From contig CALJYH010000055.1 of the NCBI GenBank assembly GCA_937984095.1, positions 1 to 50,344 on the forward strand: a DNA stretch of 50,344 nucleotides, read 5' to 3'. The position numbers and the translations under genes were made by a program. The notes beneath the pieces were generated by a model, which worked only from the letters and a program-made list of their open reading frames with translations, did not search any database and was not told where the DNA came from. Origin of the DNA: an uncultured Gammaproteobacteria bacterium. Lineage in GTDB: Bacteria; Pseudomonadota; Gammaproteobacteria; GCA-001735895. Shown here piece by piece: positions 33,886-46,817 of this stretch (position 1 is its first letter; each line of letters begins with the position of its first letter).

Positions 33886-34380
33886 CTACTCGATAACGAT
33901 CAACTCGTACCCTAGTTCCTGGTAGAGGCTGACCTGGCCGGGGCCGGTCGGTGCGACATTAACATAATCGGGGAAATCTTCCGCGGTAACCCCATACCAG
34001 CCAGCATGGGTCTCGCAGACGTGCACCAGCACATCGTCGGCAACCAGCGACTGTACCTGCTGATGGATCTCGGCATACTCGCCCTGGTATTGTGATTGCA
34101 GCGCGAATTCCTCCCTGCCATGCGAGACGACCGCAAATTCGGTAGCGGGAAATCTGGCACGAATATTTTTAATAGCAGTTCGCACCTGTGGCAGCAAGTC
34201 CTCGAGTGCAGATTCATCTGCTTCGACGATTTCAAACACGACACCCTGTGGGGGTTCTGATTGAGCCAGCAGTTTTTCAACAGCGTCGTTTGCCTGGGCG
34301 ATGCCTGCAAAGGCCATAAAAGCCAGAAACAAAATAAAGTGTCGCTGCTGACTAGATCCGGGATTTTGCGAGACCGACAT
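33886..34380 (-). CDS. Exported DsrE family protein
   Basis: Signal peptide (GIAQA), AVVSHG, VHVCETH, LGY C-terminus; start inferred at ATG 34380. Confidence 0.75.
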   Translation of the reverse strand: MSVSQNPGSSQQRHFILFLAFMAFAGIAQANDAVEKLLAQSEPPQGVVFEIVEADESALEDLLPQVRTAIKNIRARFPATEFAVVSHGREEFALQSQYQGEYAEIHQQVQSLVADDVLVHVCETHAGWYGVTAEDFPDYVNVAPTGPGQVSLYQELGYELIVIE

Positions 34381-34849
34381 GCGTGAGCTTTTCTCGCGCT
34401 TCGTCGATGCGGCTGTCAATAAATCCACCATAAAAGTCCTCCGACCATATGCCGACCAGTTTATCACTCATTTCCTTACCCTCCGCATTCAGAAACAACA
34501 GGGTCGGCGTAAGCGAAACCTCATAACGCGATGCAAAATCAGCGGTACTCATCGTTTGACCATTGAAATCAACCAGGGTTTCAAAACTGTCCAGGGACAC
34601 CGTACGAATCAGAATCTTGTCATCGTATTCCGCATTGCGCTGCATCGGCAACAGGAACAGTTGTTCGAGCTTATGGCAATAGGCGCAGTCATCGCTGGAA
34701 AACTCGAGCACCAGGATTAAATTATCTGCCCTGGCAACACGTGCTTCATCGCGCAAGTCTGAAACCCTTTTCATAACAACATTATCACCAGACACTGGTC
34801 CGGAAATCATGAGTGCGGATAAAATAATTGCGAGTAAACTGTTGCGCAT
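34352..34849 (-). CDS. Exported thioredoxin-fold protein (SoxS/SoxW-like)
   Basis: Signal peptide, CAYC, TPTLLFL; start inferred at ATG 34849. Confidence 0.82.
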   Translation of the reverse strand: MRNSLLAIILSALMISGPVSGDNVVMKRVSDLRDEARVARADNLILVLEFSSDDCAYCHKLEQLFLLPMQRNAEYDDKILIRTVSLDSFETLVDFNGQTMSTADFASRYEVSLTPTLLFLNAEGKEMSDKLVGIWSEDFYGGFIDSRIDEAREKLTHVGLAKSRI

Positions 34850-34925
34850 GGTTGGATAATTAAGCGGACTAAAGGCTGCACGTCCCTGTGCTAGCTGGCA
34901 ATCCACAAGGGATAAAAGATCCGTG

Positions 34926-35585
34926 TCAACTGGTTGGTTTGGCCGTGGTCAAACCAAGATTCGACCAATTCTGCATGCCACCGCGATACCACTTGATCTT
35001 GTGCGCCGGGTAGCCAAACTTGAGCAGGTTCTTGATATTGTTCGGAGACTGACCACACCACATGCCGTTACAGAACATGACCAGGGTCTTCGCGTTGGAG
35101 TAATCCCACAGGCCTTCAAGCGAAGCGGCGCCAAACTGGTCTTCCAGGATTTCGCCAATTGAAATCGGATCAGCACCTTTGGCAGGATTCAAAGCAGTCC
35201 ACGGAATATTAACCGCGCCGGGGATCGTGCCCTTTTGCACCCAGTCAGGCGTGCGTGAATCGACCACCAGAATAGTCTTGTCACCCTTGCTCATTCGAAC
35301 CAGGTAATCAATTATTTCCTGTTCGCCCAGGGTTTCTATTCCAGGGGCCAATACAATTGGCTGAATACAAAACGGCGGGCAGGGCCGTGAAGTCTTGGCA
35401 AAGGCGGGATTAACCACGGCCTTGTTGTTCTGATCACGCATGATCTTCACCGACTTACCACCGTGCATGACGCTGGCTTCTTTCATGGTCGGTGTTATTC
35501 CCACAGGTTTATCGGCGGCCGCGGCGTTGCCAACCCATATCAGGCTGGTGGTCAACATAATTATTTTTAATAGCTTGGGTTTCAT
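34926..35585 (-). CDS. Periplasmic rhodanese-like sulfurtransferase (SoxL-like)
   Basis: Signal peptide, KTSRPCPPFCIQP, GTIPGAVNIP, FCNGMWCGQS, YRGGMQNW. Confidence 0.88.
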   Translation of the reverse strand: MKPKLLKIIMLTTSLIWVGNAAAADKPVGITPTMKEASVMHGGKSVKIMRDQNNKAVVNPAFAKTSRPCPPFCIQPIVLAPGIETLGEQEIIDYLVRMSKGDKTILVVDSRTPDWVQKGTIPGAVNIPWTALNPAKGADPISIGEILEDQFGAASLEGLWDYSNAKTLVMFCNGMWCGQSPNNIKNLLKFGYPAHKIKWYRGGMQNWSNLGLTTAKPTS

Positions 35586-35637
35586 CTTGTCCCTCCCGGG
35601 ATGTAATTAAAGAATTTAAATAAACGTGACTCCAACT

Positions 35638-35847
35638 CTAATCACAATCTGGTTCTTCTTCCTCTTCCCCTTCCTCTTTCTTTTTACCTTCCTGGCCTGC
35701 TTCGCTGCCAGCTACAATTGAAACGCAATACTGCGTTGATTCAACGGCAGACCGGAACTCATCCAGTGGTGACCACGCCAGCGCAACGGAGGAAAGAATC
35801 GTTTGGAAGGCTACGAAAAGCACTAAAATCAGATGTTTCATTTTCAT
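35638..35847 (-). CDS. Small secreted protein with acidic Cys-containing tail
   Basis: 69 aa, signal peptide (VALA), C-terminal EEGEEEEEPDCD. Confidence 0.7.
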   Translation of the reverse strand: MKMKHLILVLFVAFQTILSSVALAWSPLDEFRSAVESTQYCVSIVAGSEAGQEGKKKEEGEEEEEPDCD

Positions 35848-36059
35848 GTCTCTTCACGCGATACTGCGAACAATGCTAGATAATCAAAAAACACCGGGAT
35901 AGCACATATCTAACTTTGGGTATGGCTACACAAAGCGCTATCCATATAGTGTTTATTACATATTTGAATAGGATGAATTAATGTGCTTAATCTTATTATT
36001 ATCGTCGTCCAATACCTTTAAGTTGTTGCGCTAAATCAAGTAATTTGCATTTTCTCATT

Positions 36060-37142
36060 ATGTTCTACAACGAACAGACAGATCATCGCTTTTTCGGTTA
36101 CCGAACTACAACCCTACTGCTGTTGCTGCTTACGATTTCTTTACAAAACGGCATAGCGAGTGAAAATCCACTGGGTAAATCTTATGGTGCAATACCCTCC
36201 GAAAAACCGGACTGGTTTAAAGAAAGCTTCCTCGAATTCGAAGACGATGTCGCCGAGGCTGCGGCTGCCGGCCGGCGCGTCATGCTTTATTTTCACCAGG
36301 AAAGCTGCCCCTACTGCGCCCGGCTGGTCGAAGAGAATTTCACAGACCCCGAAATAAAGAGTTACATCATCAAGCATTTTGACGGTATCTCGCTCAACAT
36401 GTGGGGCGATCGCGAAGTAGTCAGTATCGGTGGTCAGGACTTTACCGAAAAAACCTTTGCCGCGGCCCTAAAGGTTCAATATACCCCGACCCTGGTTTTT
36501 CTGGATGAAAACGGCAAGGTTGCACTGCGTTTGAATGGTTATTACCCGCCTGCTGACTTCCGTGCGGCGCTCGACTATGTTTCGCAAAAACTGGAGCGGA
36601 AACTGAGCTTTTCGCAGTTTCGCCTCGATAAATTGGCATCGGTCGACGGCAATCTAATCAATGAAGACTTTTATCTGGATCAAGCCGATCTGAGTATACT
36701 TATCTCGAACACAAATAAGCCACTCGCGGTTTATTTCGAATCACCCAACTGTGCGGAATGCAAGACCATGCACGAGCGAATCCTGACCGATAAAGCGACT
36801 CGTAAACTCGTGCTCGAGGCCAACAATGTGCAGTTTAACGTCGCGTCAGAAAAACGCCTGACCACTCCCGCAGGCGAGCGGACCAGCGTCAGGCAATGGG
36901 CGCAGGAACTGGGAGTCGATTACACCCCCTCGCTGATCTTTTTTGATCAGCAAGGCAATGAAGTCATGCGCATCGGCGCATTTATGAAAACCTTTCATTT
37001 TCAATCGGTATACGCCTACGTGCTGGAAAAGGCGTATCTCGAAGAACCAGAGTTCCAGCGCTATATATCGGCGCGAGCTGATCATATTCGTGAAGCCGGA
37101 TTCGATACCGATATCTGGGGTTACGATTCATTTCATGATTAA
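36060..37142 (+). CDS. soxW: Tandem thioredoxin-fold protein SoxW-like
   Basis: PDWFKESFL, CPYC and CAEC, two YTP motifs; sox context. Confidence 0.8.
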   Translation: MFYNEQTDHRFFGYRTTTLLLLLLTISLQNGIASENPLGKSYGAIPSEKPDWFKESFLEFEDDVAEAAAAGRRVMLYFHQESCPYCARLVEENFTDPEIKSYIIKHFDGISLNMWGDREVVSIGGQDFTEKTFAAALKVQYTPTLVFLDENGKVALRLNGYYPPADFRAALDYVSQKLERKLSFSQFRLDKLASVDGNLINEDFYLDQADLSILISNTNKPLAVYFESPNCAECKTMHERILTDKATRKLVLEANNVQFNVASEKRLTTPAGERTSVRQWAQELGVDYTPSLIFFDQQGNEVMRIGAFMKTFHFQSVYAYVLEKAYLEEPEFQRYISARADHIREAGFDTDIWGYDSFHD

Positions 37143-37169
37143 ATACATCTAAACCAGAGGAGACATACC

Positions 37170-37481
37170 ATGAAACATACCCTAAAAACCTTGTTGCTCA
37201 CTGCCTCGGTCGCAGTTTTCAGCTGTGGCTATCTTGCATCGGTAAACGCAGCTGACATGAGTGCTGAAGCTTCGATTGCCGCTGCCAAGGATGCCCAGAA
37301 GCAAGCAAAATCGGTTGGCGGAGAATGGCGCGACACCGGCAAGATGATCAAGAAAGCGGAAAAGCTGTTAAAAGAAGGTAAAGCCAAGGAAGCCGCAAAA
37401 ATAGCCCAGGAGGCCGAAGCACAGGGTATGCTGGGTTACATGCAGGCCACTTCGCAAACCAAAGACAACCTGCACATCTAA
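37170..37481 (+). CDS. soxK: SoxAX-binding protein SoxK
   Basis: Signal peptide, Ala/Lys-rich helices, GEWRDT motif. Confidence 0.82.
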   Translation: MKHTLKTLLLTASVAVFSCGYLASVNAADMSAEASIAAAKDAQKQAKSVGGEWRDTGKMIKKAEKLLKEGKAKEAAKIAQEAEAQGMLGYMQATSQTKDNLHI

Positions 37482-37500: not shown

Positions 37501-37532
37501 GCCGGATGACCCATTCGTCATCCGGCCGTTTT
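37501..37532. terminator. Hairpin between convergent genes
   Basis: GCCGGATGAC-CCATTC-GTCATCCGGC followed by a short T tract. Confidence 0.6.
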
Positions 37533-37542
37533 GTCCCGTTCC

Positions 37543-37950
37543 TTATTCGGCCAACTGCCAACCTTTCTCGGTTTTGTGCAACGTGACCTTATCGGTTTTA
37601 TGAATTCGGTCTCCGACCTCGAACTGACCAAAATTTGACTGAATCGCGGTCAAAATAAACTTCGAGCCAAACATTCCATACTGGGGTCCGGTAGGATCTT
37701 CACGAATTTCCCGCACCACGTCGATAAAGCTTTTCTGAAACACCAGGTCATATTCAACGTCTACAACGTAAACGTTGTCGCTTTCCCTGAAGCCGTTGAC
37801 CTTGGCGAAGTTTTCCATCGTAAACAGATCATCGAGGCCATCCGTCAGCAAACTGCTGCGCACCATGGTTTCAATTTCCTCGCTATCGGGCACACCGGAA
37901 CAGGCGGCCAGCAAGGCGGAGAGCAGTAGCAGAGCTAATATTTTTTTCAT
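37543..37950 (-). CDS. Hypothetical lipoprotein
   Basis: LLAAC lipobox; C-terminal KTEKGWQL. Confidence 0.75.
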   Translation of the reverse strand: MKKILALLLLSALLAACSGVPDSEEIETMVRSSLLTDGLDDLFTMENFAKVNGFRESDNVYVVDVEYDLVFQKSFIDVVREIREDPTGPQYGMFGSKFILTAIQSNFGQFEVGDRIHKTDKVTLHKTEKGWQLAE

Positions 37951-37967
37951 TATCCAGGATCGTTAGT

Positions 37968-38834
37968 TTATTGAGATTCGGCAGTATCGGGTTTGGCCTG
38001 CCCCTGCTTTGACATCATTTCCTGCCATTGCTGGTAGAATTTTTCGTACTGCTTTGGATCCATTATTGTCTGCGGACCCGGTGTCGCGCCGATTGGCGGC
38101 ACGGCACCAGGATGTGTCATCCCGGGCATCTGCGGCATCATCCCCATCGGTGGCATCCCGCCAGGCATTTGCGGCATCATTCCCATCGGTGGCATCCCGC
38201 CGGGCATCTGCGGCATCATTCCCATCGGTGGCATCCCGCCGGGCATCTGCGGCATCATCCCCATCGGTGGCATCCCGCCGGGCATCCCTGGCATCATGCC
38301 CATGCCCGTCATGGGATTCATCATCCCCATCATCGGCGCCATCATCATGCCGGTCATCGGGTTCATCATCATACCCATCGGTGCCATCATCCCGGTCATC
38401 GGGTTCATCATCCCCGTCATAGGTGCCATCATCCCGGTCATCGGATTCATCATCCCCGTCATTGGCGCCATCATCCCGGTCAGCGGGTTCATCATTCCAG
38501 TGGCAGCATCACCGTAGGCCTGGGGATTAGCCATGTGCATCATCGGATTCATCGCCTGCATCATGCCGCCGTAGTCCTTCTGATAGCGCGCAATATCCTC
38601 GTTGTCGTGGCATTCGACACAGGATGAAATCAGCGGTTGGCCCTGTAATTCGCCACTCATCATGCTATTCATGAGCTTGATCCAGACATTCGGATCCATC
38701 GATTTTTGCATGGCATACGACATTTCCGGGTCGGCTGCTGCGGTATTGTCCGTTGCTTCATCTGCCGCCATCGATACCGATGTTGTCAGGCCCAACAAAA
38801 CGGCTAACAGTAATTTTACAATGCTGGTATTCAT
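37968..38834 (-). CDS. Secreted Met/Pro/Gly-rich repeat protein with a CxxCH motif
   Basis: CAGGAG RBS, signal peptide, CVECH at residues 72-76, about 71 Met in 288 aa by my count. Confidence 0.8.
   Translation of the reverse strand: MNTSIVKLLLAVLLGLTTSVSMAADEATDNTAAADPEMSYAMQKSMDPNVWIKLMNSMMSGELQGQPLISSCVECHDNEDIARYQKDYGGMMQAMNPMMHMANPQAYGDAATGMMNPLTGMMAPMTGMMNPMTGMMAPMTGMMNPMTGMMAPMGMMMNPMTGMMMAPMMGMMNPMTGMGMMPGMPGGMPPMGMMPQMPGGMPPMGMMPQMPGGMPPMGMMPQMPGGMPPMGMMPQMPGMTHPGAVPPIGATPGPQTIMDPKQYEKFYQQWQEMMSKQGQAKPDTAESQ
38130..38285 (-). repeat. 4 x 39-bp coding tandem repeat (MPGGMPPMGMMPQ)
   Basis: Four copies identical at protein level, differing only at synonymous positions. Confidence 0.95.
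38304..38495 (-). repeat. 9 x ~21-bp coding tandem repeat (MM[N/A]PMTG)
   Basis: Units of 6-8 aa with strict Asn/Ala alternation. Confidence 0.9.
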
Positions 38835-38886
38835 TAGGTGTACTCCTGAGTACTTGTGAGATGCCTATAACGGCAGCCTAAAATTG

Positions 38887-39810
38887 TTAAAAATCGCCGG
38901 TCGCGGCGCCTTCCATGATGTAGCGCATACCGTCACGAATTCTGATCGCTTCCGTGCGTAACTCTTTATCCAGAACACTATTCGGATTCTGCGCCAGGTT
39001 GAGCCAGTTCACATCCCAGTCCAGGGTCATCACCCAGAGCTTGCCTTCCGCATCTTCGAGCAGTGCGATACGGCAGGGAATGAAGACGATAAACTCCGGC
39101 GCATAGTCGAGCACCTTGCGTGCCACCATGGCATCACAGAAATTAAAAATTTCTACCCGGGGAGTCTCTTCGCCGGTAATTGCAGTAATGTCTTTCCAAA
39201 GCGGACTGTGCCCGACGAACTTGAAATTTATTTCATTGGCGCGTAGGCGCATGGATTCTATTGCGTCGTCAAAGGAAACATCTTCGGCCACCGGCATCTT
39301 GTCTGCCATGATCGAAATCATGTCACGCAACGATAACGGGCTCAGCATCATCATGCTCTGATACAGGTTTCGCTTGGCCTCGTCCGAAATCGAGTCCGAT
39401 ACGGTGTTGGCTGGAACGTCCCGTTTAGTTTGCGAAGGTATCCACATCCGGGCCTGGTTAGACCCGCCGAACATACCCTCCAGCATTTGCGTATTGGCAG
39501 CGCGCAGCATTGCATCGAGAATGTTAAAGCGGGTGGCTTCGTCAATCGGTGCGTTCATGAAATGATTCGCCATCATCATCATCCACTGCATGTTCATCCA
39601 TTCCGAGGACATTCCCTGCGCATTGATGTTGGAGGTTATCGAAGGTGCGGTGTTTGCCATCCACGGGAACAGGTAAAAAGGATTCTGCAGGGGGCTCGCA
39701 GGCGCAGCATTACAACCCGGTTCCCCTGCAGCGCAATTTTCCTGACTTATCGCGGGATGCATAGATAACGACAATGCGACCGTCATTATTGCGATAAAAC
39801 GAACCAACAT
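38887..39810 (-). CDS. Exported DUF302 domain protein with Met-rich N-terminal extension
   Basis: Signal peptide; C-terminal EIFNFCDA...FIPCRIALLED. Confidence 0.82.
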   Translation of the reverse strand: MLVRFIAIMTVALSLSMHPAISQENCAAGEPGCNAAPASPLQNPFYLFPWMANTAPSITSNINAQGMSSEWMNMQWMMMMANHFMNAPIDEATRFNILDAMLRAANTQMLEGMFGGSNQARMWIPSQTKRDVPANTVSDSISDEAKRNLYQSMMMLSPLSLRDMISIMADKMPVAEDVSFDDAIESMRLRANEINFKFVGHSPLWKDITAITGEETPRVEIFNFCDAMVARKVLDYAPEFIVFIPCRIALLEDAEGKLWVMTLDWDVNWLNLAQNPNSVLDKELRTEAIRIRDGMRYIMEGAATGDF

Positions 39811-40090
39811 GATGAATCCCCTATTTCTTATTTAATGAGTGATTTGCTAATTTCGCGATACCTTAACAATCCTGAGCCTCAGATCAAATATCCACTAGTG
39901 CATACAAACCAGATCAAAAATACGTTAACCTAATACTCTTTATTCGGAGCTTACCCAAATTGGGGTATAGTATTCAGGTATTCGAATAAGTTATTTTTCA
40001 ACTGTCGAATTGCATCAGAAATTTCAGCACAATAAACAGCAACCTGCCCAGCGCGGGGAAGCATATGAGCAAGTATCGAGGAGGAATAGC

Positions 40091-40453
40091 ATGACGATGA
40101 AACAAGTTACCAGCGGAATAGTATCAATGACACTATTTTGCTGTATTTCGATTTTGGGCGGCATTTCGGTCGCGAACGCCGATGCTATCGCTGATGGCAA
40201 GAAAGTAGCATTCGATCGTAAGAAAGGCAATTGTCTGGCCTGTCATGCGATAGCCGGCGGTTCGCTGCCTGGAAATATCGGCCCACCGTTGATTGCCATG
40301 AAGGCACGCTTCCCTGAAAAAGCCAAGCTGCGAGAGCAGATCTGGGACTCGACAGCCGCCAATCCTAACACCATCATGCCTCCTTTCGGCAAACACAGAA
40401 TATTGACAGAAAAGGAAGTGGACCTGGTTACAGAATTTATCTACACCCTTTAG
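40091..40453 (+). CDS. soxX: Sulfur oxidation c-type cytochrome SoxX
   Basis: KKGNCLACH, GNIGPPL, MPPFG; GAGGAGG RBS before ATG 40091. Confidence 0.95.
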   Translation: MTMKQVTSGIVSMTLFCCISILGGISVANADAIADGKKVAFDRKKGNCLACHAIAGGSLPGNIGPPLIAMKARFPEKAKLREQIWDSTAANPNTIMPPFGKHRILTEKEVDLVTEFIYTL

Positions 40454-40487
40454 GCCCGCATGAAAATATCGCACGAGGAAATTTAAG

Positions 40488-40958
40488 ATGAATCTTTTAC
40501 GTCGCAAGTTTATTAAAACGGCCGCTTTTGTCGGCGCCACGGTATCGGCCGTCGGCACGGGAATTTTGATTCCCCAACGCGCACTGGGTGCTTATACCAA
40601 GGCAGCCTTTGATGCCAAGGACGTCAGTGGTGCACTGACTGCAGCCATGGGCACGGATCAGCATACTGCCTCCGATGCAATCAAGCTGAAAGCACCGGAC
40701 ATCGCCGAAAACGGTGCAGTGGTTCCGATAACCGTGTCATCAACCATGGGAAATATTGACGCCATCTCTATTATTGCATCAGCTAACGACTCACCCATGA
40801 CTTCAACCTACATGCTGACTTCCGCCTGTGAGCCATTTGTTTCCACCCGGATCAAGATGGCCAAAACCTCCGACGTTCTCGCCGTGGTCAAGGCGGATGG
40901 CAAGCTCTATTCGGCTGCAAAGGAAGTCAAAGTCACCATTGGTGGTTGTGGCGGTTAA
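40488..40958 (+). CDS. soxY: Thiosulfate carrier SoxY
   Basis: Tat motif RRKFIK, APDIAENGAVVP, C-terminal VTIGGCGG. Confidence 0.97.
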   Translation: MNLLRRKFIKTAAFVGATVSAVGTGILIPQRALGAYTKAAFDAKDVSGALTAAMGTDQHTASDAIKLKAPDIAENGAVVPITVSSTMGNIDAISIIASANDSPMTSTYMLTSACEPFVSTRIKMAKTSDVLAVVKADGKLYSAAKEVKVTIGGCGG

Positions 40959-40989
40959 TTTCAGACATTAAAGAATTGGAGAATTAAAC

Positions 40990-41301
40990 ATGGCTTCTAT
41001 AAAGATTCGCGCAAAGGCAAAAGACGGCGTTACAACCGTCAAGACATTGATGAGTCACCCGATGGAAACCGGGTTGCGCAAAGACTCAAAAACCGGCAAG
41101 AAAATTCCGGCCCATCACATCACCGAGGTTACCGCGGAGCACAATGGCAACACCGTTATGACTGCAAACTGGGGTGGTGCTATTTCGAAAAATCCATACC
41201 TTTCGTTCAAGTTCAAAGGCGCCGCCTCGGGTGACAAGATCAAAATCACCTGGGTCGATAACATGGGCAAAGGTGACAGCGCCGAAGCCGCAATCAAGTA
41301 A
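40990..41301 (+). CDS. soxZ: SoxZ
   Basis: HPMETGLRKD, SKNPY. Confidence 0.97.
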   Translation: MASIKIRAKAKDGVTTVKTLMSHPMETGLRKDSKTGKKIPAHHITEVTAEHNGNTVMTANWGGAISKNPYLSFKFKGAASGDKIKITWVDNMGKGDSAEAAIK

Positions 41302-41337
41302 ACCGCGGTCATAAAATAATACTGAGGAGGAACTGTC

Positions 41338-42171
41338 ATGAATAAACTAATTACGACCCTGGGGATTGCTTTACTGGTTGCGTTGCCTTTCAACGGCATG
41401 GCAAGCCCACAGCAGGACCTGTCAGAGTTTCGGGATTACTACGAGAAACGTTTTCCGGGCACCCCTTTCGATGATTTTATCAACGGTGTCTACTCAATCG
41501 ACCCGGTAACCCGCGAACAATGGGAAGAAATCGAAGAATTTCCACCCTACGAGTTAGGCCTCAGCAAGGGTGAGGAGTTGTTCAACAAGCCGTTTGCAAA
41601 CGGCAAGACTTACGCCAGCTGCTTTGAAAATGACGGCATTGGTATCCGCCAGAACTATCCCTACTTCGATACCGATCGAGGCGAAGTCATTACCCTCGAG
41701 CTGGCAATCAACGAATGCCGCGAAGCCAATGGCGAGAAAAAATTGAAGTGGAAGAAAGGGCCAATCGCATTTATATCCGCCTACATGGCCTATACCTCGC
41801 GCGGCAATATAATTGACATCAAGATTCCGGATGATCCGCGTGCAGTTGCCGCCTATGAACGCGGCAAAAAACACTTCTACCAGAAGCGCGGTCAGCTCAA
41901 TATGGCCTGCGCCGATTGCCACAAGTTTTATGCCGGAAGCATGGTGCGCGCCGACTTGCTGAGTCCCGCATTGGGGCACTTGAGCCATTTCCCGGTATAT
42001 CGCTCCAAATGGGGCGGCATGGGTACCACGCATCGTCGGTATGGTGGTTGTAACAAGCAGGTACGGGCCAAGGACTACCCGGCACAAAGTGAAGAGTACC
42101 GCGCGCTGGAGTACTTCCATACGTACATGAGCAACGGACTCGCAGTCAACGGACCCGGCGCCAGAAAGTAA
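41338..42171 (+). CDS. soxA: SoxA, monoheme type
   Basis: RGQLNMACADCH, FPVYR.KW, RY.GC..QVRA, LEYFHTYMSNG; first heme site degenerate (YASCF). Confidence 0.95.
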   Translation: MNKLITTLGIALLVALPFNGMASPQQDLSEFRDYYEKRFPGTPFDDFINGVYSIDPVTREQWEEIEEFPPYELGLSKGEELFNKPFANGKTYASCFENDGIGIRQNYPYFDTDRGEVITLELAINECREANGEKKLKWKKGPIAFISAYMAYTSRGNIIDIKIPDDPRAVAAYERGKKHFYQKRGQLNMACADCHKFYAGSMVRADLLSPALGHLSHFPVYRSKWGGMGTTHRRYGGCNKQVRAKDYPAQSEEYRALEYFHTYMSNGLAVNGPGARK

Positions 42172-42224: not shown

Positions 42225-42417
42225 ATCCCCAAAGGGGTAGCCCACTATCAAACAGGGCAGTTTTATCACCCTTCCAATTAAACTATGGTTGACACTTATT
42301 GTTTAAGGCTGTTCTATCGTCTGGTTGATACAGATCAATGAGTGCTGGCAAGAAATCTTTAAAACACTAACTTGCCTGATATACGAAACGTTTAACCAGC
42401 AGAGGAATAAATTGAAT

Positions 42418-42648
42418 ATGTCCGAATTTACCGAAAAATTTGATGCCACCGGCCTCAACTGCCCCCTTCCCATTCTGAGATCGAAGAAGGTCCTCAGTTC
42501 GATGAATAGTGGCGACGTGCTCTATGTCATTGCCACCGACTCGGGTTCAGTCAAGGATTTCGATGCCTTTTGCAAGCAAACCGGAAACGAGCTGCTGGAT
42601 AGCTCGGAAGCCGACGGCAAGTATCACTATTACATCAAGAAGGCCTGA
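42418..42648 (+). CDS. tusA: Sulfurtransferase TusA
   Basis: DATGLNCPLPIL, ATD.GS..DF; ATG 42418 after AGAGGA. Confidence 0.93.
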   Translation: MSEFTEKFDATGLNCPLPILRSKKVLSSMNSGDVLYVIATDSGSVKDFDAFCKQTGNELLDSSEADGKYHYYIKKA

Positions 42649-42686
42649 GATCGTTACTCAGCGCCTAAAATATTCCGGAGTGAAGT

Positions 42687-43166
42687 ATGTCTGAGAAAAA
42701 ACTGGCGCTGATTGCCACCAAGGGAACCCTGGACTGGGCCTACCCTCCTTTCATCCTGGCATCTACCGCGGCCGCCATTGGTTACGAGGTACAGATCTTC
42801 TTCACCTTTTACGGTCTCCAGTTACTTAAAAAGGACATGAACCTCAAGGTTTCGCCGCTCGGCAATCCCGGCATGCCGATGCCGATGGGCATGGATAAAT
42901 GGTTTCCGACCATCGGTACCGCCATCCCCGGCATGGAAGCCATGATGAGCAGCATGATGAAATCGAAGATGAAATCCAAGGGCGTCGCCAGCGTTGCCGA
43001 ACTGCGTGAATTGTGCCAGGAAGCTGATGTCAAGCTAATCGCCTGCCAGATGACGGTGGATTTGTTTGACATGCAACCAAGCGAATTTATCGACGGCATC
43101 GACTACGCCGGTGCGGCCACCTTTTTCGAATTTGCCGGGGAATCAGACGTCAACCTGTTTATCTAG
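42687..43166 (+). CDS. dsrE2: DsrE2-like sulfur relay protein
   Basis: KGTLDWAYPPFILASTAAA, FFTFYGL, IACQMT; adjacent to tusA. Confidence 0.88.
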   Translation: MSEKKLALIATKGTLDWAYPPFILASTAAAIGYEVQIFFTFYGLQLLKKDMNLKVSPLGNPGMPMPMGMDKWFPTIGTAIPGMEAMMSSMMKSKMKSKGVASVAELRELCQEADVKLIACQMTVDLFDMQPSEFIDGIDYAGAATFFEFAGESDVNLFI

Positions 43167-43212
43167 CAATCACTATTTCTATAAATCAAGCGAACACGAG
43201 GAGGCAGTTATC

Positions 43213-44583
43213 ATGAGGGTTCGACTTAAGTTTTTCAGCATGGCTTTACTAGCATGCACATTTCCAGCATCGGTCTGGGCCACCAACGGTTATTTCAGTC
43301 ACGGCACCAGCATCGCGGAAAAAGGCATGGCCGGTGCCGGCGTCGCCTATTCACAGGACACACTCGCCGCAGCCAACAATCCTGCCGGCATGGTCTGGCA
43401 GGGAGCCCGCTACGACATCGGAGCGGCCTTGTTTGGACCAATGCGCGAATACAAGGCTACAGGCAGTCCATCGGCCCCGGCGGGATCGCCATGTGGTCCC
43501 TGCCCCTTCAGTATCGGTGACGGCGATCAAAGCATTGATAGTGAAAACGAAGCTTTTCTGATCCCGCAATTTGGTTACAACTGGGTAATCAATGACGACA
43601 GCACTGTGGGTGTTTCGGTCTTCGGTAACGGCGGCATGAATACCGAATACAAGGACGGAACGGCCATATTGGGACCGAATCCAATAACGGGATTGAACTT
43701 CGAAGCGCCCGGTACCTTTGGTGACGGCACCACCGGTGTGGATCTGGCACAACTGTTCATTGCCACGACCTATGCAGCAAAGATCAATGAAAATACTTCC
43801 TGGGGTATCAGCGGAATCATTGCCTACCAGCGTTTTGAAGCCAAAGGCCTGGCAAATTTTAGTCCTTTTTCTTTGGATCCGAGTAACCTAACCAACAATG
43901 ACCACGATACCGCAACCGGTTTCGGCATACGGCTTGGATTTCAGACTGAAATTTCCCCGGGGGTTCGCTTTGGCGCCGCCTATCAACCCGAAATTGATAT
44001 GAGTGAATTCGATGACTACGCCGGCCTGTTCGCGGAAGATGGCGATTTTAATATCCCGTCGAACTTCACTGTCGGTTTGGCAATCGATGTTCGGGATCAT
44101 GGTGTCCTGGTCGTCGATGTACAGCAAATCAACTATGAAGATGTGGATGCAGTATCCAATCCGATAGAGCCACTCACTGACGGCAGCTGTGCAGCCGGTG
44201 CGGGCGCCGGAGGCAGTGGAGTCGGTGACGGTTGCCTCGGTGGTGACGATGGTGCCGGTTTCGGCTGGGAAGACATGACCGTCGTTAAAATTGGCTACCA
44301 GTGGCAGGACGGCGACATGACATGGCGCGTCGGTGTAAGTACAGGAGATCAACCCATACCCAGCAGCGAAGTCGTGTTTAACATTCTGGCACCTGGTGTT
44401 GTAGAGGAGCATATTACCTTCGGCTTTACCAAGCAGATTGATGCACAGAGCTCGTTCAATTTCGCCGCGATGTATGCACCCAGTGTTTCAGTAGACGGCA
44501 CCAACACTTTCGATCCAAACCAGGAAATCGAACTTGAGATGGATCAGTACGAGCTCGCATTTACCTATAACCGCAGGATATAG
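43213..44583 (+). CDS. OmpP1/FadL family outer-membrane channel
   Basis: Signal peptide, ATNGYFSHG, GMAGAG, NNPAG, GNGGMNTEY, GFGWED, NILAPGVVE; GAGGAGG RBS. Confidence 0.88.
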   Translation: MRVRLKFFSMALLACTFPASVWATNGYFSHGTSIAEKGMAGAGVAYSQDTLAAANNPAGMVWQGARYDIGAALFGPMREYKATGSPSAPAGSPCGPCPFSIGDGDQSIDSENEAFLIPQFGYNWVINDDSTVGVSVFGNGGMNTEYKDGTAILGPNPITGLNFEAPGTFGDGTTGVDLAQLFIATTYAAKINENTSWGISGIIAYQRFEAKGLANFSPFSLDPSNLTNNDHDTATGFGIRLGFQTEISPGVRFGAAYQPEIDMSEFDDYAGLFAEDGDFNIPSNFTVGLAIDVRDHGVLVVDVQQINYEDVDAVSNPIEPLTDGSCAAGAGAGGSGVGDGCLGGDDGAGFGWEDMTVVKIGYQWQDGDMTWRVGVSTGDQPIPSSEVVFNILAPGVVEEHITFGFTKQIDAQSSFNFAAMYAPSVSVDGTNTFDPNQEIELEMDQYELAFTYNRRI

Positions 44584-44619
44584 GCACTCACGCTGTAAAC
44601 TCAATCTACTACTTAAAAT

Positions 44620-44645
44620 GGGCAGCTGCGGGATAGCAGCTGCCC
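44620..44645 (+). promoter_or_regulatory. Intercistronic stem-loop without U-tract
   Basis: GGGCAGCTGC-GGGATA-GCAGCTGCCC. Confidence 0.55.
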
Positions 44646-44674
44646 GACTTCAGGCAACACTCGACTTTACTCTG

Positions 44675-45640
44675 ATGAAACGATCCAGACTTTCAATTCT
44701 GCGCAGTACCTGCAGCATATTGTTGTTGCTCAGTCTTGGCTCTGCCGCCATCGCAGCTGACACGCTAAAGCCATTCATCCTGGCCGGCAGTATCGAGGGA
44801 GATCAACCAGGCAAGGCTCGCGCAGGCATCGTCTCCAGCCTGCAGAACGCTGGTTTTGAGGTCATCGGGCAATACTCTCCTTACCAGGAAGCAGATGTCG
44901 TCATCTTTACTCATTCAGTATTGCGCGACCTGGCCACGCGAAGTGCACGCGGTGGTTACGGCGCCACTCTGAGAGTTTCACTCACCCGTAACAATGACAA
45001 AATCGAAATCGCGTATACCAACCCGCATTACTGGGCGAATGCCTACCGCATGCAGGCTGATGTCGAAACGATTGCATCTCAATTGAAATCCATTCTGGGA
45101 TATGAGAAGCCATTTGGTAGCGGCGATCTGTCACTGACCGCCAGCGATTTGCGCAAGTATCACTACACCTTCATGATGGAGTATTTTGATGATCCCAGCG
45201 TGTTGAATTATTTCGACTCGCACGAACAGGCAGTTATGAGGGTACGTGACAACCTGGCCAGGCAGGTCGGTGCCTCAACCCAGGTTTTTGAACTGAAGCT
45301 GGGTTCCGATACCAAAGGAAAACAGATGACCCTGTTCGGGGTCGGACTCAGCGGCTCCGATGAGGAGGATTGCAGCAGCGATGCGTACATCATGAACCGC
45401 ATCGACAGGGATTCACCCCGACATACCGCTCACCTGCCCTACGAGATTCTGGTTTATGGAGACCAGGCAGAAGCGCTCTATGGCAGATTCAGGATTGCAA
45501 TTAGCTGGCCCCACTTACCGATGATGGCAAGCGATACAGGCGCTACCTTTTTCAGTATTATGTGCGCGCCTGGCGCAATCCAGGATGTGTTAACTAAAAT
45601 TGCTGGAGGCAGCATCACCAGGTCCGGTAGCGAGAAGTAA
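44675..45640 (+). CDS. Conserved periplasmic hypothetical protein
   Basis: Signal peptide (AIA-AD), LRKYHY..MMEYF, HLPYEILV, FRIA..WP; start inferred at ATG 44675. Confidence 0.75.
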   Translation: MKRSRLSILRSTCSILLLLSLGSAAIAADTLKPFILAGSIEGDQPGKARAGIVSSLQNAGFEVIGQYSPYQEADVVIFTHSVLRDLATRSARGGYGATLRVSLTRNNDKIEIAYTNPHYWANAYRMQADVETIASQLKSILGYEKPFGSGDLSLTASDLRKYHYTFMMEYFDDPSVLNYFDSHEQAVMRVRDNLARQVGASTQVFELKLGSDTKGKQMTLFGVGLSGSDEEDCSSDAYIMNRIDRDSPRHTAHLPYEILVYGDQAEALYGRFRIAISWPHLPMMASDTGATFFSIMCAPGAIQDVLTKIAGGSITRSGSEK

Positions 45641-45671
45641 TGCTTCAATTTGAAAGGGTGTATTAGAGTAT

Positions 45672-46817
45672 ATGCAGCTAGATCTTTATTCACAGTCTCT
45701 GCTATGGGCGTTCGGGCTTTCCATCGTTTTCGGTGCAATCGCCAACAAGGCTAACTTTTGCACCATGGGCGCGGTTTCCGACTGGATTAATATCGGCGAT
45801 CACAACCGCATGCGCTCGTGGCTGCTGGCAATCGTGACTGCAATTATTGGTGTCGGAATTCTTGAATACTCAGGCTCCATCGACCTGTCGTTGACGACCA
45901 GCAACGATACCTCCAATCCACCCTATCGCAGCGCTAACTTCATCTGGCTGCGGCACCTGCTGGGTGGATTGATGTTTGGGATTGGCATGACGCTGGCGAG
46001 CGGCTGCGGCAACAAGACCCTGGTGCGCCTCGGCGAAGGCAATATGAAGTCGCTAGTGGTTCTTGCAATCATGGGGATCGCCGCCTGGTGGATGCTATTT
46101 TCCAATTTTAGCTACCTGGCATTCCTGCAATGGATGCTGCCGGTCAGCATTGATTTTTCGAACCAGGATATTCCGAGTCAGGATATTGCCGCAGTAGTGT
46201 TTGGTCTCGCTGGCTACGAATGGGGAGCCAGCGACGGGTTGGTGGTTGCTCTGGTCGTGGCAGTTCCGTTGCTGATTTGGATCCTCCGTTCACAGGATTT
46301 TCGATCCAATCTCGAATTGGTATCGGCAGGCCTGATCATTGGCTTGCTGATCGTTATTGGCTGGTATGTCACAGCCGGTCCGGGTGGCCTGGAACTTATG
46401 GATGAGCTCGAATTCATGGATGACCGGCCCTTTTTCACCGGCGCACAATCGCTCACTTTTATTGGACCGACTGGCCACATTGCGCAATACTTGAAAGAGG
46501 GTTTTTCCGCAATTTTTCTAACCTTTGGCGTGGCGACGGTACTCGGTGTCGTGGTTGGCTCGTTTCTGTATACCCTGATATTTCGCAAAGTCCGAATTGA
46601 ATGGTTTGTATCCTGGAATGATTTCCTGATGCACGCTATCGGTGCCCTGTTAATGGGTATTGGCGGGGTGCTGGCGATGGGTTGCACCATTGGCCAGGGA
46701 ATCACCGGCGTCTCGACCCTGGCGCTGGGGTCGATTCTGACGATCGTCGCGATCATCGCCGGCAGTGCGGCAACCATGAAGTACCAGTATTACCTAATGA
46801 TGCGTGAAGATGACTAG
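45672..46817 (+). CDS. YeeE/YedE family sulfur-compound transporter
   Basis: Three conserved Cys motifs NFCTMG, ASGCG, AMGCTIGQG; multiple TM. Confidence 0.92.
   Translation: MQLDLYSQSLLWAFGLSIVFGAIANKANFCTMGAVSDWINIGDHNRMRSWLLAIVTAIIGVGILEYSGSIDLSLTTSNDTSNPPYRSANFIWLRHLLGGLMFGIGMTLASGCGNKTLVRLGEGNMKSLVVLAIMGIAAWWMLFSNFSYLAFLQWMLPVSIDFSNQDIPSQDIAAVVFGLAGYEWGASDGLVVALVVAVPLLIWILRSQDFRSNLELVSAGLIIGLLIVIGWYVTAGPGGLELMDELEFMDDRPFFTGAQSLTFIGPTGHIAQYLKEGFSAIFLTFGVATVLGVVVGSFLYTLIFRKVRIEWFVSWNDFLMHAIGALLMGIGGVLAMGCTIGQGITGVSTLALGSILTIVAIIAGSAATMKYQYYLMMREDD

What the first reader, a model, noticed from the sequence alone, without database searches (positions are those of the whole stretch)
37968..38834. 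Secreted ~25% methionine tandem-repeat protein with a single CxxCH motif inside the sox cluster
Seen: signal peptide, small domain with CVECH (38607-38621), nine MM[N/A]PMTG units alternating strictly Asn/Ala (a 14-aa super-repeat), four perfect MPGGMPPMGMMPQ units, and recurring MDPxxW/Y-type motifs at both ends. Only synonymous DNA changes separate the 13-mers. Known: characterised sulfur globule proteins SgpABC are secreted low-complexity Gly/Pro/Tyr-rich proteins without heme. Inference: this may be a new kind of Met-rich sulfur-globule coat or S0-solubilising scaffold wired to a c-type heme. Alternatives are a Cu/Ag-binding or oxidant-scavenging Met reservoir.
Basis: partly seen in the sequence, partly recalled or inferred. 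Interest (0 to 1): 0.8.

Follow-up and report, generated by a model that had tools for sequence, protein, structure and literature searches.

The report
Methionine-rich probable haem protein beside Sox
A secreted protein that is one-quarter methionine, probably carries one haem and always sits next to a DUF302 protein in sulfur-oxidation gene clusters, making it an undescribed candidate for handling sulfur outside the cytoplasm.

Summary
Window 37968-38834 (-) encodes a 288-aa exported protein with 71 Met (24.7%), one CVECH and two tandem-repeat arrays. It is by far the most Met-rich ORF in its genome. It is an inflated member of a small family that no Pfam or NCBIfam model matched. That family has 61 cluster representatives among 1.84 billion. 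Its core is an N-terminal segment with CxxCH (73 of 78 members) plus a C-terminal MDPxxYxxW helix. The Met-rich middle varies in length and type.

In 33 of 33 loci the gene directly follows a secreted DUF302 protein. SoxYZ, YeeE, DsrE2, TusA or SoxA lie within the flanks of 31 of 33. Carriers have dsrA and most lack soxC. Partner proteins and paralogues carry the same Met-rich repeats. No copper or MsrP genes were seen.

Best reading: a periplasmic mono-haem protein working with DUF302 in zero-valent sulfur hand-over between SoxYZ/FCSD and import. Haem attachment, sulfur binding and globule association are all untested.

The parts
37968..38834 (-). CDS of the 288-aa Met-rich CxxCH protein
   Evidence: homologues
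38843..38847 (-). AGGAG ribosome-binding site, 8 nt before the ATG
   Evidence: sequence read directly
38766..38834 (-). Signal peptide, aa 1-23, ending SMA|AD
   Evidence: Read from the translation; no predictor was run
38499..38729 (-). Conserved N-terminal domain, aa 36-112 (AMQKSMDPNVW...CxxCH..D.ARYQKDxG.MM)
   Evidence: Alignments A1 and A2; hhalign to the minimal family 99.5%, E 1.9e-22
38607..38621 (-). CVECH, the putative haem c attachment site; contains the only two Cys of the protein
   Evidence: conserved in 73 of 78 family members and all 29 genome loci
38286..38498 (-). Array of nine 7-residue MM(N/A)PMTG-type units, also readable as a 14-residue super-repeat, aa 113-183
38130..38285 (-). 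Four perfect 13-residue MPGGMPPMGMMPQ units, aa 184-235
38004..38069 (-). Conserved C-terminal helix, aa 256-277 (MDPKQYEKFYQQWQEMM); shared with paralogues that lack the CxxCH domain
   Evidence: A1 invariant M258 P260 Q262 Y263 E264; helix 260-277 in the model; paralogues
38887..39810 (-). Upstream operon partner: a secreted 307-aa protein with a Met/Trp-rich N-terminal part and a DUF302 domain; Cys225 and Cys246 are invariant
   Evidence: PF03625 E 9.3e-10; alignment A4; adjacent in 33 of 33 loci
37543..37950 (-). Downstream 135-aa lipoprotein, starting 17 nt after the stop; kept only in the close clade (7 of 29 loci)
37501..37526 (.). GC-rich hairpin between the convergent saxB and lipoprotein genes; likely end of the minus-strand operon
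   Evidence: consensus scan only
40010..42171 (+). Divergent soxX-soxY-soxZ-soxA
   Evidence: NCBIfam equivalogs over cut-off
42325..46817 (+). tusA, dsrE2, a FadL/TodX-type outer-membrane channel, an unassigned secreted ORF, and a YeeE/TsuA-like sulfur transporter
34352..37481 (.). Thioredoxin-like protein, rhodanese, SoxW-like double thioredoxin and the SoxAX-binding protein SAXB

Best explanation
The gene encodes a Sec-exported periplasmic protein. It is a lineage-specific, repeat-inflated member of an undescribed family of small CxxCH proteins.

The family core is an N-terminal helix-turn-CxxCH segment and a C-terminal amphipathic MDPxxYxxW helix. I read the core as a mono-haem c-type cytochrome with His/Met ligation. 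Between the two elements, this protein carries about 134 uncharged residues made almost only of Met, Pro and Gly.

It is made together with a secreted DUF302 protein. The pair belongs to the periplasmic part of sulfur oxidation in bacteria that have Sox without SoxCD, plus reverse Dsr.

Proposed mechanism:
- The DUF302 protein, through its two invariant Cys, and the thioether-rich disordered segments take over zero-valent (sulfane or polysulfane) sulfur released at SoxYZ or FCSD.
- They keep it soluble or tethered on its way to storage or to the YeeE/TusA/DsrE2 import route.
- The haem links the assembly to the periplasmic cytochrome c pool.

Shown here: the gene, the family, CxxCH conservation, the obligate DUF302 adjacency, the sulfur-gene context, and the recurrence of Met-rich repeats in partners and paralogues.

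Inferred, not shown: haem attachment, any contact with sulfur, and the direction of electron flow.
For: 1. Real and conserved. 22 close homologues were found. A profile of the N-domain finds 61 representatives with E <= 1e-3 among 1.84 billion. It aligns to the minimal 120-170-aa members at 99.5% probability, E 1.9e-22.

2. Haem.
- CxxCH is present in 73 of 78 family rows. The 5 exceptions are 3 fragments, one CAPCR and one GAACH.
- It is invariant in A1 (20 sequences) and A3 (19 sequences), and present in 29 of 29 genome loci.
- Most members have exactly two Cys.
- No second conserved His exists, but Met at +19 and +23 from the first Cys is kept in 72% and 75% of 71 sequences.
- The best, sub-threshold, matches are haem-binding segments of photosynthetic reaction-centre cytochrome c (PDB 8z82_C, E 0.086; PF02276, E 0.033).
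- The second paralogue type abuts a class-I cytochrome c gene in 3 of 3 loci.

3. DUF302 partnership. DUF302 lies directly upstream on the same strand in 33 of 33 loci. In the order, 18 of 18 other carrier genomes also have the long DUF302 form.

4. Sulfur context.
- SoxYZ is in 26 of 33 loci, YeeE in 24, DsrE2 in 27, and any of SoxY/Z/A, YeeE, DsrE2 or TusA in 31. The other two loci are truncated contigs holding SAXB, SoxW-like thioredoxin and rhodanese.
- FCSD, NapC/NirT and cytochromes flank the pair in other clades.
- dsrA is present in 5 of 5 carriers in the genus and 4 of 4 elsewhere. All 6 non-own carriers in the class sample have dsrA, against 124 of 401 overall.
- soxC is absent in 5 of 5 carriers in the genus.

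5. The Met-rich segment is the shared functional element.
- DUF302 partners in other clades carry MMNPxM repeats, reaching 22% Met.
- Tandem paralogues keep the repeats and C-terminal helix without the CxxCH domain.
- In L036 and L037 a 289-aa Met-rich repeat protein, a 144-aa CxxCH protein and DUF302 are three consecutive genes. That is a split form of this fusion.
- Met-rich MNPxxY proteins precede SoxY-SoxZ-DUF302 in L040, L041, L042 and L044.

6. A FadL/TodX channel, a family that moves hydrophobic compounds, sits in the same gene row (also L050). A FadL-family protein has been proposed to carry hydrophobic sulfur chains in Chlorobaculum (bioRxiv 10.1101/172254, one Discussion passage read).
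Against: - No cytochrome model reaches its threshold.
- The structure models are poor: pLDDT 48.6 for this protein and 66.4 for a minimal member. They match no solved fold, so the haem fold is unproven.
- One full-length member has CAPCR instead of CxxCH.
- Releasing sulfane sulfur from SoxY needs no electron transfer, so the haem has no obvious role in the proposed hand-over.
- Met-rich segments are established Cu(I) recruiters in CueO (PMC11494321, PMC12041951; search listing and abstract starts only).
- Some Met-rich MNPxxY relatives without CxxCH lie in loci with no sulfur genes: L043 and L045 by Pfam, L039, L046 and L047 by tblastn only.
- 4 of 18 carrier genomes in the order gave no SoxA match; they are 80-94% complete.
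- Expression evidence is only a weak hint.
Confidence: 0.42

Rival explanations
1. It is only an electron carrier. The protein would be a small c-type cytochrome shuttling electrons from SoxXA or FCSD to the respiratory chain. The Met/Pro/Gly repeats would be just a flexible spacer between the haem segment and a C-terminal docking helix.
For: - CxxCH is conserved.
- The paralogue type is translationally abutted to a class-I cytochrome c in 3 of 3 loci.
- NapC/NirT, dihaem cytochromes and FCSD lie next to the pair.
- Minimal members of 120-170 aa do without long repeats.
- The repeat region is predicted disordered.
Against: - A neutral spacer would not need 40% Met with no charged residue.
- The same Met-rich repeats recur in the DUF302 partner and in paralogues that have no CxxCH at all.
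- The four 13-residue units differ only synonymously, which suggests selection on the peptide.
Confidence: 0.18
2. It is a structural coat protein of periplasmic or extracellular sulfur globules, a functional analogue of SgpA-D.
For: - It is Sec-exported and repetitive with regularly spaced prolines, and the repeat region is uncharged and mildly hydrophobic (GRAVY +0.17).
- These traits resemble those described for Sgp proteins (PMC10386293, passages read).
- Several paralogous Met-rich proteins lie side by side in some loci.
- Carriers have Sox without SoxCD plus rDsr, the gene set that in known bacteria goes with S0 as an intermediate (established knowledge).
Against: - No localisation or proteome data exist.
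- It is an operon partner of DUF302 and not a separate transcription unit like the sgp genes (PMC10386293).
- It carries a conserved CxxCH domain, which no Sgp has.
- Whether these uncultured bacteria make globules at all is unknown.
Confidence: 0.12
3. It is a periplasmic binder or buffer of soft metals, Cu(I) or Ag(I). The Met-rich repeats would recruit Cu(I) as in CueO, and DUF302 with CxxCH would supply thiol/imidazole sites. That would protect or supply enzymes in a sulfidic habitat.
For: - The repeats are dense in MxxM- and MxM-type spacing.
- Met-rich domains recruit Cu+ in CueO (PMC11494321, PMC12041951; listing and abstract starts).
- Earlier unchecked AI notes from this scan place DUF302-fold proteins in copper regulons (e1-2132136, e1-1484883).
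Against: - No cop, cus, cue, pco or cupredoxin gene appears in the window or in the neighbourhoods scanned with Pfam.
- The repeats contain only one His and no Cys, Asp or Glu.
- The fixed neighbours are sulfur carriers and transporters in 31 of 33 loci.
Confidence: 0.12
4. It is a sacrificial methionine sink for periplasmic oxidants, like MrpX. It would protect the Cys arm of SoxY and the haems, and be recycled by a methionine sulfoxide reductase.
For: - It is periplasmic and extremely Met-rich.
- MrpX with YedY is an established system of this kind (PMC4436054, abstract read).
- An AhpC/TSA-redoxin gene lies in the paralogue locus L031.
Against: - No molybdopterin MsrP/YedY-type gene or SigF/NrsF pair appears in any neighbourhood scanned.
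- The conserved CxxCH and C-terminal helix, and the obligate DUF302 pairing, are not explained by this reading.
Confidence: 0.06

Closest known systems
Small c-type cytochromes, in particular the helix-Met-turn-CxxCH haem-binding segments of the reaction-centre tetrahaem cytochrome (PufC, Pfam PF02276)
   Same: - It is exported.
- It has a single CxxCH holding the only two Cys.
- A Met-rich helix lies 11-17 residues before the motif.
- The best, sub-threshold, sequence matches fall on these segments.
   Different: - No cytochrome model reaches threshold.
- No fold match was found.
- A 134-residue Met/Pro/Gly insert sits in the middle.
- Haem attachment is untested.
Sulfur globule proteins SgpA-D of Allochromatium vinosum (PMC10386293, passages read)
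   Same: - Both have a Sec signal.
- Both are repetitive with regularly spaced Pro and hydrophobic character.
- Both occur in bacteria that oxidise sulfur by routes with S0 as an intermediate.
   Different: - This protein is Met-rich with a conserved CxxCH domain and C-terminal helix.
- It is always co-operonic with DUF302.
- There is no evidence of globule association.
- No sequence comparison with Sgp proteins was made here.
DUF302 genes in sox clusters that lack soxCD (Thermithiobacillus, Acidithiobacillus, Thiobacillus; PMC5037610, passages read)
   Same: The partner gene is a DUF302 protein in a sox cluster without soxCD. Its function is unknown there too.
   Different: - Those reports describe a DUF302 protein of about 191 aa between soxA and soxB, and mention no Met-rich or CxxCH partner.
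- Here DUF302 has a long N-terminal extension and a fixed downstream partner.
Met-rich domain of the cuprous oxidase CueO (PMC11494321, PMC12041951; listing and abstract starts only)
   Same: Both are periplasmic, flexible, Met-dense segments thought to capture a soft ligand.
   Different: - This protein has no multicopper oxidase domain.
- No copper genes lie nearby.
- Its repeats lack His, Asp and Glu.
MrpX, the periplasmic Met-rich hypochlorite scavenger of Azospira suillum (PMC4436054, abstract read)
   Same: Both are secreted and Met-rich.
   Different: - No YedY/MsrP or SigF/NrsF partner genes were seen.
- This protein has conserved non-repeat domains and a sulfur-gene context.

Membership tests
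c-type cytochrome (covalent haem c protein) | A CxxCH haem-attachment motif, conserved among relatives | tested here: met
   CVECH lies at aa 72-76. The motif is in 73 of 78 family rows, is invariant in A1 and A3, and is present in 29 of 29 loci.
c-type cytochrome (covalent haem c protein) | Export to the periplasm, where haem is attached | tested here: met
   The N-terminal hydrophobic segment ends SMA|AD, and all aligned relatives have one. This was read by eye; no predictor was run.
c-type cytochrome (covalent haem c protein) | A conserved sixth ligand (Met or His) | tested here: inconclusive
   There is no second conserved His. Met at +19 and +23 is kept in 72% and 75% of 71 sequences, and Met at -13 in 62%. 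The abundance of Met makes the assignment ambiguous.
c-type cytochrome (covalent haem c protein) | A match to a curated cytochrome c model, or a cytochrome fold | tested here: inconclusive
   No Pfam or NCBIfam hit at threshold. Sub-threshold hits: PF00034 E 0.083, PF02276 E 0.033. Foldseek gave no match and VIA-align's best Z was 3.8, on a model of pLDDT 66.
c-type cytochrome (covalent haem c protein) | Covalently bound haem demonstrated | not testable with these tools
   Needs a haem stain or spectroscopy of expressed protein.
Sulfur globule proteins (SgpA-D) | A Sec signal and a repetitive, Pro-spaced, hydrophobic sequence | tested here: met
   The repeat region has GRAVY +0.17 and no charged residue. 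The traits are as described in PMC10386293.
Sulfur globule proteins (SgpA-D) | Sequence homology to SgpA, B, C or D | not tested
   No Sgp sequence was available to compare. No Pfam family of any kind matched at E <= 0.01.
Sulfur globule proteins (SgpA-D) | Physical association with sulfur globules | not testable with these tools
   Needs a globule proteome or localisation experiment.
Sulfur globule proteins (SgpA-D) | A separate transcription unit, as described for the sgp genes | tested here: not met
   The start lies 52 nt after the DUF302 stop, and the lipoprotein gene follows after 17 nt. The DUF302 adjacency holds in 33 of 33 loci.
Met-rich Cu(I)-binding periplasmic proteins (CueO domain, CopA/PcoA, PcoE/SilE type) | Clustered Met motifs | tested here: met
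   40.3% Met in aa 113-246.
Met-rich Cu(I)-binding periplasmic proteins (CueO domain, CopA/PcoA, PcoE/SilE type) | Genomic association with copper homeostasis genes | tested here: not met
   None in the window, and none in the loci scanned with Pfam: L013, L031, L007, L012, L014, L019, L029, L030, L032, L036, L037, L041, L043, L044, L045.
MrpX/MsrP oxidant-scavenging system | Neighbouring or co-regulated periplasmic methionine sulfoxide reductase (YedY/MsrP) | tested here: not met
   No such gene appears in the same Pfam scans. Genome-wide presence was not searched.
DUF302 (PF03625), for the partner gene 38887-39810 | A match to the Pfam model over its cut-off | tested here: met
   E 9.3e-10, 38.7 bits against a cut-off of 23. 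There is a weak match to TT1751, PDB 1j3m.

The most novel reading that the evidence does not exclude
The DUF302 protein, the CxxCH protein and their Met-rich paralogues together are the missing periplasmic machinery of the truncated Sox pathway. They would strip sulfane sulfur from SoxYZ and from FCSD. They would hold it as zero-valent sulfur on a thioether-rich, uncharged, disordered matrix, which would be a new kind of sulfur store or escort not homologous to Sgp proteins. They would then pass it to the YeeE/TusA/DsrE2 import route or to a FadL-type outer-membrane channel. The haem would gate loading or unloading by redox state.
Probability: 0.22. Interest if true: 0.85.

Novelty: new variant of a known kind. 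Interest (0 to 1): 0.66.

Why it matters
How sulfane sulfur leaves SoxY in bacteria without SoxCD, and how it reaches storage or the cytoplasmic rDsr pathway, is unresolved. The abstract start of PMC9959259 (seen in a search listing) says that how bacteria deal with the sulfane sulfur accumulated by an incomplete Sox system 'remains largely unclear'.

This gene pair offers concrete, expressible candidates that sit exactly between SoxYZ/FCSD and YeeE/TusA/DsrE2. The arrangement recurs in four families of the class sampled here, among uncultured marine-sediment and other Gammaproteobacteria.

It also gives a first functional handle on DUF302. And it defines a Met-rich repeat type that no Pfam or NCBIfam model matched.

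None of five literature searches returned a description of it. Searches found nothing relevant, and one search found 0 papers holding both 'methionine-rich' and 'SoxYZ'. The searched library lacks most subscription journals.

Tried and rejected
It was never accepted because the queue was full. No binding test exists.
- Structure of the whole protein was poor: pLDDT 48.6, with only helices at 40-60, 78-102 and 260-277.
- A minimal member, P0061, gave pLDDT 66.4 and an all-alpha model. Foldseek against PDB found nothing with E <= 0.001. VIA-align over 48,161 chains gave a best Z of 3.8. No conclusion on the fold is possible.
- ESM Atlas gave no usable hit for P0061. For the 135-aa lipoprotein it returned only unnamed lipoprotein clusters.
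- RNA evidence is weak. Runs X17 and X18 are only guessed to be RNA and cover genes and spacers alike. The oligo-dT RNA run X19 has identical 151-nt contigs at 37788-37938, 37932-38082 and 39103-39253. This is at most a weak hint of transcription; contigs cannot show level, strand or ends.
- Parts without cover, and the unbridged repeat region, say nothing about absence.
- The first metagenome scan with alignment A3 failed for lack of a conserved stretch. It was repeated with the narrower alignment A5.
- The Tso selenoprotein lead, from an earlier scan note and a weak TsoB hit of the thioredoxin genes, led nowhere. The review PMC13188914 only lists the names.
- Antisense ORFs across the repeats (38028..38627 +, His/Pro-rich; 38296..38517 +, Ile/Pro-rich) were rejected as mirror images of the repeat. 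Only the minus frame has conserved non-repeat ends and homologues.
Full report
**1. The observation**

Window 37968-38834 on the minus strand is an ATG-started ORF of 288 codons. AGGAG lies 8 nt upstream of the start.

The product begins with a typical export signal ending SMA|AD, which I read by eye. It contains 71 Met (24.7%). Its only two Cys lie in CVECH at aa 72-76 = 38607-38621.

Residues 113-246 are 40.3% Met. Otherwise they are almost only Pro, Gly, Thr, Asn, Ala and Gln, with no charged residue.

Two repeat arrays are present:
- Nine 7-residue MM(N/A)PMTG-type units alternate strictly between Asn and Ala. Seven are exact and two Ala units are degenerate.
- Four perfect MPGGMPPMGMMPQ units follow. 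Their DNA differs at three positions, all synonymous.

Tandem Repeats Finder confirms periods of 42 and 39 nt.

In the window's own 62.7%-complete genome I listed 3438 ORFs of at least 100 aa. Their median Met content is 2.4%, and the runner-up has 9.9%. The composition is therefore far outside chance.

One caveat applies. None of the contig pieces listed for four public runs bridges 38151-38466, and 3-nt indel variants occur inside the arrays. The exact copy number in this assembly should not be trusted.

**2. The family**

A word-indexed search with residues 1-112 found 22 relatives. A profile of the 75-residue N-domain (alignment A2) was run against one representative per 50% cluster of about 15 billion proteins. 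It found only 61 proteins with E <= 1e-3, and 39 with E <= 1e-10.

Three of the weakest are unrelated: P0073, and the multihaem proteins P0076 and P0079.

The shortest real members are 120-170 aa. They consist of a signal peptide, the N-domain with CxxCH, two or three M-N-P-x-x-W/Y turns, and a C-terminal MDPxTYxxWYxAWMxKYG helix. The window's N-domain aligns to them at 99.5% probability, E 1.9e-22.

The window protein is therefore this core with a long Met/Pro/Gly insert between the N-domain and the C-terminal helix. In close relatives the insert differs in unit number and type, giving proteins of 259-354 aa.

No Pfam or NCBIfam model matches this protein or any of the relatives scanned (Pfam; NCBIfam, this protein only). 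The ESM Atlas gave nothing usable.

**3. Is the CxxCH a haem site?**

- The motif is present in 73 of 78 family rows. The five without it are three fragments (P0064, P0077, P0078), one CAPCR (P0069) and one GAACH in a truncated sequence (P0059).
- It is invariant in alignments of 20 and 19 sequences, and present in all 29 genome loci.
- Most members have exactly two Cys.
- After the motif comes a conserved x-x-E-D-(I/V)-A-R-Y-Q-K-x-(F/Y)-G-(P/G)-M-M. There is no second conserved His, but Met is frequent at +19 and +23 (72% and 75% of 71 sequences) and in the preceding helix.
- The best matches are all below significance. They fall on the helix-turn-CxxCH haem segments of reaction-centre tetrahaem cytochromes (PDB 8z82_C, E 0.086; PF02276, E 0.033).

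The structure models are weak, with pLDDT 48.6 for this protein and 66.4 for a minimal member; both are all-helical. They match no solved fold.

I take covalent haem with His/Met ligation as likely, at about 0.7. It is unproven.

**4. Neighbourhood**

In the window the gene is the second of three on the minus strand:
- A 307-aa secreted protein with a Met/Trp-rich N-terminal part and a DUF302 domain (PF03625, E 9.3e-10).
- This gene, starting 52 nt later.
- A 135-aa lipoprotein, starting 17 nt after that.

A hairpin follows at 37501-37526.

The operon diverges from soxX-soxY-soxZ-soxA. Those genes are followed by tusA, dsrE2, a FadL/TodX-type outer-membrane channel, an unassigned secreted ORF and a YeeE/TsuA-like transporter. 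On the other side lie SAXB, a SoxW-like double thioredoxin, a rhodanese and another thioredoxin. The rest of the window is ordinary metabolism, with no copper or MsrP genes.

**5. Is the neighbourhood conserved?**

A scan of one genome per species returned 29 loci. By their record titles all are uncultured Gammaproteobacteria, with one labelled Thiotrichales and one Pseudomonadota. Four more loci came from an even sample of the class.

Counts across these 33 loci:

| Feature | Loci |
|---|---|
| DUF302 gene directly upstream, same strand | 33 of 33 |
| SoxYZ within the flanks | 26 of 33 |
| YeeE within the flanks | 24 of 33 |
| DsrE2 within the flanks | 27 of 33 |
| Any of SoxY, SoxZ, SoxA, YeeE, DsrE2, TusA | 31 of 33 |

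The two remaining loci are truncated contigs that show SAXB, SoxW-like thioredoxin and rhodanese instead.

In the more distant clade the pair diverges from NapC/NirT, a dihaem cytochrome c and the FCSD flavoprotein.

Within the window's order, 19 of 79 genomes carry the family, counting the window's own. All carriers belong to one genus, where 18 of 60 other genomes have it. All 18 also have the long DUF302 form, and 14 of 18 have SoxA.

Sulfur-pathway genes in carriers:
- Five carriers in the genus have dsrA (5 of 5), soxB (5 of 5) and no soxC (0 of 5).
- The window's own genome shows a dsrA fragment at a contig end.
- In the class sample, 7 of 400 genomes carry the family, in four families.
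- All six carriers other than the window's genome have dsrA, against 124 of 401 overall. Relatives are not independent, so this is not a formal test.
- soxC is over its cut-off in 1 of the 4 carriers outside the genus.

**6. The Met-rich segment recurs**

- DUF302 partners of the distant clade carry long MMNPxM arrays at their N-termini: 22% Met in L026, 18% in L024, 17% in L028.
- Several loci hold tandem paralogues with the repeats and the C-terminal MDPKQYEQWF..MM helix but no CxxCH domain (L020, L030, L048).
- In metagenome loci L036 and L037, a 289-aa GMNPMM-repeat protein, a 144-aa minimal CxxCH protein and a DUF302 protein are consecutive genes. This is a split version of the window's fusion.
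- In L040, L041, L042 and L044, a Met-rich M-(N/D)-P-x-x-Y repeat protein without CxxCH directly precedes SoxY-SoxZ-(rhodanese)-DUF302, downstream of FCSD.
- A second paralogue type in the window's genus lies in an operon of this order: MNPxxYM-repeat protein, class-I cytochrome c, CxxCH protein, dihaem cytochrome c. It sits next to FCSD-SoxY-SoxZ-DUF302 in L031. The cytochrome c gene abuts the CxxCH gene in 3 of 3 loci.

There are counter-examples. Met-rich MNPxxY proteins in L039/L043/L047 and L045/L046 have no sulfur genes in their flanks.

**7. Interpretation**

The firm part is this. The gene encodes a real, exported, conserved protein that is the obligate operon partner of a secreted DUF302 protein. 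It belongs to sulfur oxidation of the 'Sox without SoxCD plus rDsr' type.

The likely part is that it carries one haem c.

The inferred part is the mechanism. The uncharged, thioether-rich disordered segments, present on both partners and on paralogues, together with the two invariant Cys of DUF302 (C225 and C246), may receive and hold zero-valent sulfur coming off SoxYZ or FCSD. That sulfur would be on its way to storage or to YeeE/TusA/DsrE2.

A FadL-type channel in the same gene row fits hydrophobic sulfur traffic (also L050). This idea has been raised for Chlorobaculum CT2230 (bioRxiv 10.1101/172254, one passage read).

The weak point is that removing sulfane sulfur from SoxY needs no electrons. 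The role of the haem is therefore open.

Rivals, in order of my odds:
1. A plain electron carrier with a spacer.
2. A true globule coat.
3. A Cu(I) binder.
4. A methionine oxidant sink.

The last two lack any supporting neighbour genes in the 15 related loci scanned with Pfam, or in the window.

**8. What is known**

DUF302 genes in sox clusters that lack soxCD have been noted, with function unknown (PMC5037610, passages read).

Sgp proteins are Sec-exported, very hydrophobic, repetitive with spaced prolines, and transcribed separately (PMC10386293, passages read).

Five searches returned no description of a Met-rich partner of DUF302 or SoxYZ. The library lacks most subscription journals, and supplements were not consulted.

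Earlier unchecked AI notes from this same scan describe the same module in three other genomes (e1-1257040, e1-2074283, e1-1517408). They agree with my reading but are not independent evidence.

**9. Verdict**

I rate it a new variant of a known kind: an undescribed cytochrome-like, Met-rich family within sulfur oxidation. It has real value as a testable candidate for an open step of the pathway.

Noticed in passing
window 43066-44583 (+): A FadL/TodX-family outer-membrane channel (PF03349, E 4.9e-13) sits between dsrE2 and yeeE in the sulfur gene row. It is kept in 6 of 29 genome loci and in L050, which comes from another family at 62% identity. L012 has a FadL fragment at its edge. This suggests traffic of a hydrophobic sulfur species across the outer membrane.
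   Followed up: partly
window 44534-45640 (+): An ORF lies between the FadL-like gene and yeeE. It is probably a secreted protein of about 320 aa starting at the internal MKRSRLS. It has no Pfam match and no tblastn match in any of the 33 related loci. In L003 the two flanking genes are only about 28 nt apart, so this gene is an insertion specific to this genome.
   Followed up: partly
L031 10002-10730, L036 2327-3022, L037 1810-2445, L045 4722-5429, L049 6081-6749 and 6809-7498: A wider set of secreted proteins is built from an 8-residue M-N-P-x-x-Y/W-M-x repeat. No Pfam model matched the two scanned (L031 and L030 examples). They are often, but not always, next to SoxYZ, DUF302 or FCSD.
   Followed up: partly
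L031 8263-10730 (-), L033 8145-9856 (-), L032 6263-7143 (+): A second paralogue type of the CxxCH family is abutted to a class-I cytochrome c gene of about 118 aa in 3 of 3 loci. In L032 the pair is flanked by transposase and integrase genes.
   Followed up: partly
window 38887-39810 (-), residues 225 and 246: Two Cys of the DUF302 domain (FCDA and PC motifs) are invariant in 26 aligned sequences. They are candidate persulfide or metal ligands.
   Followed up: partly
L012 1757-4404, L013 1966-4652, L030 372-3019: NapC/NirT tetrahaem cytochrome, a dihaem cytochrome c and the FCSD flavoprotein form a unit transcribed divergently from the DUF302/CxxCH pair in the small-genome clade.
   Followed up: partly
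window 38028-38627 (+) and 38296-38517 (+): Long antisense ORFs across the repeats (His/Pro-rich and Ile/Pro-rich) are mirror artefacts of the Met-codon-rich repeat, not genes.
   Followed up: yes
window 33886-34467 (-) and L037 2535-3116 (-): An ORF with a weak DsrE-like match (E 0.0048 in the window, 2.3e-7 in L037) lies next to the thioredoxin and rhodanese genes of the island. In the window it overlaps the thioredoxin ORF, so its true start is unclear.
   Followed up: no
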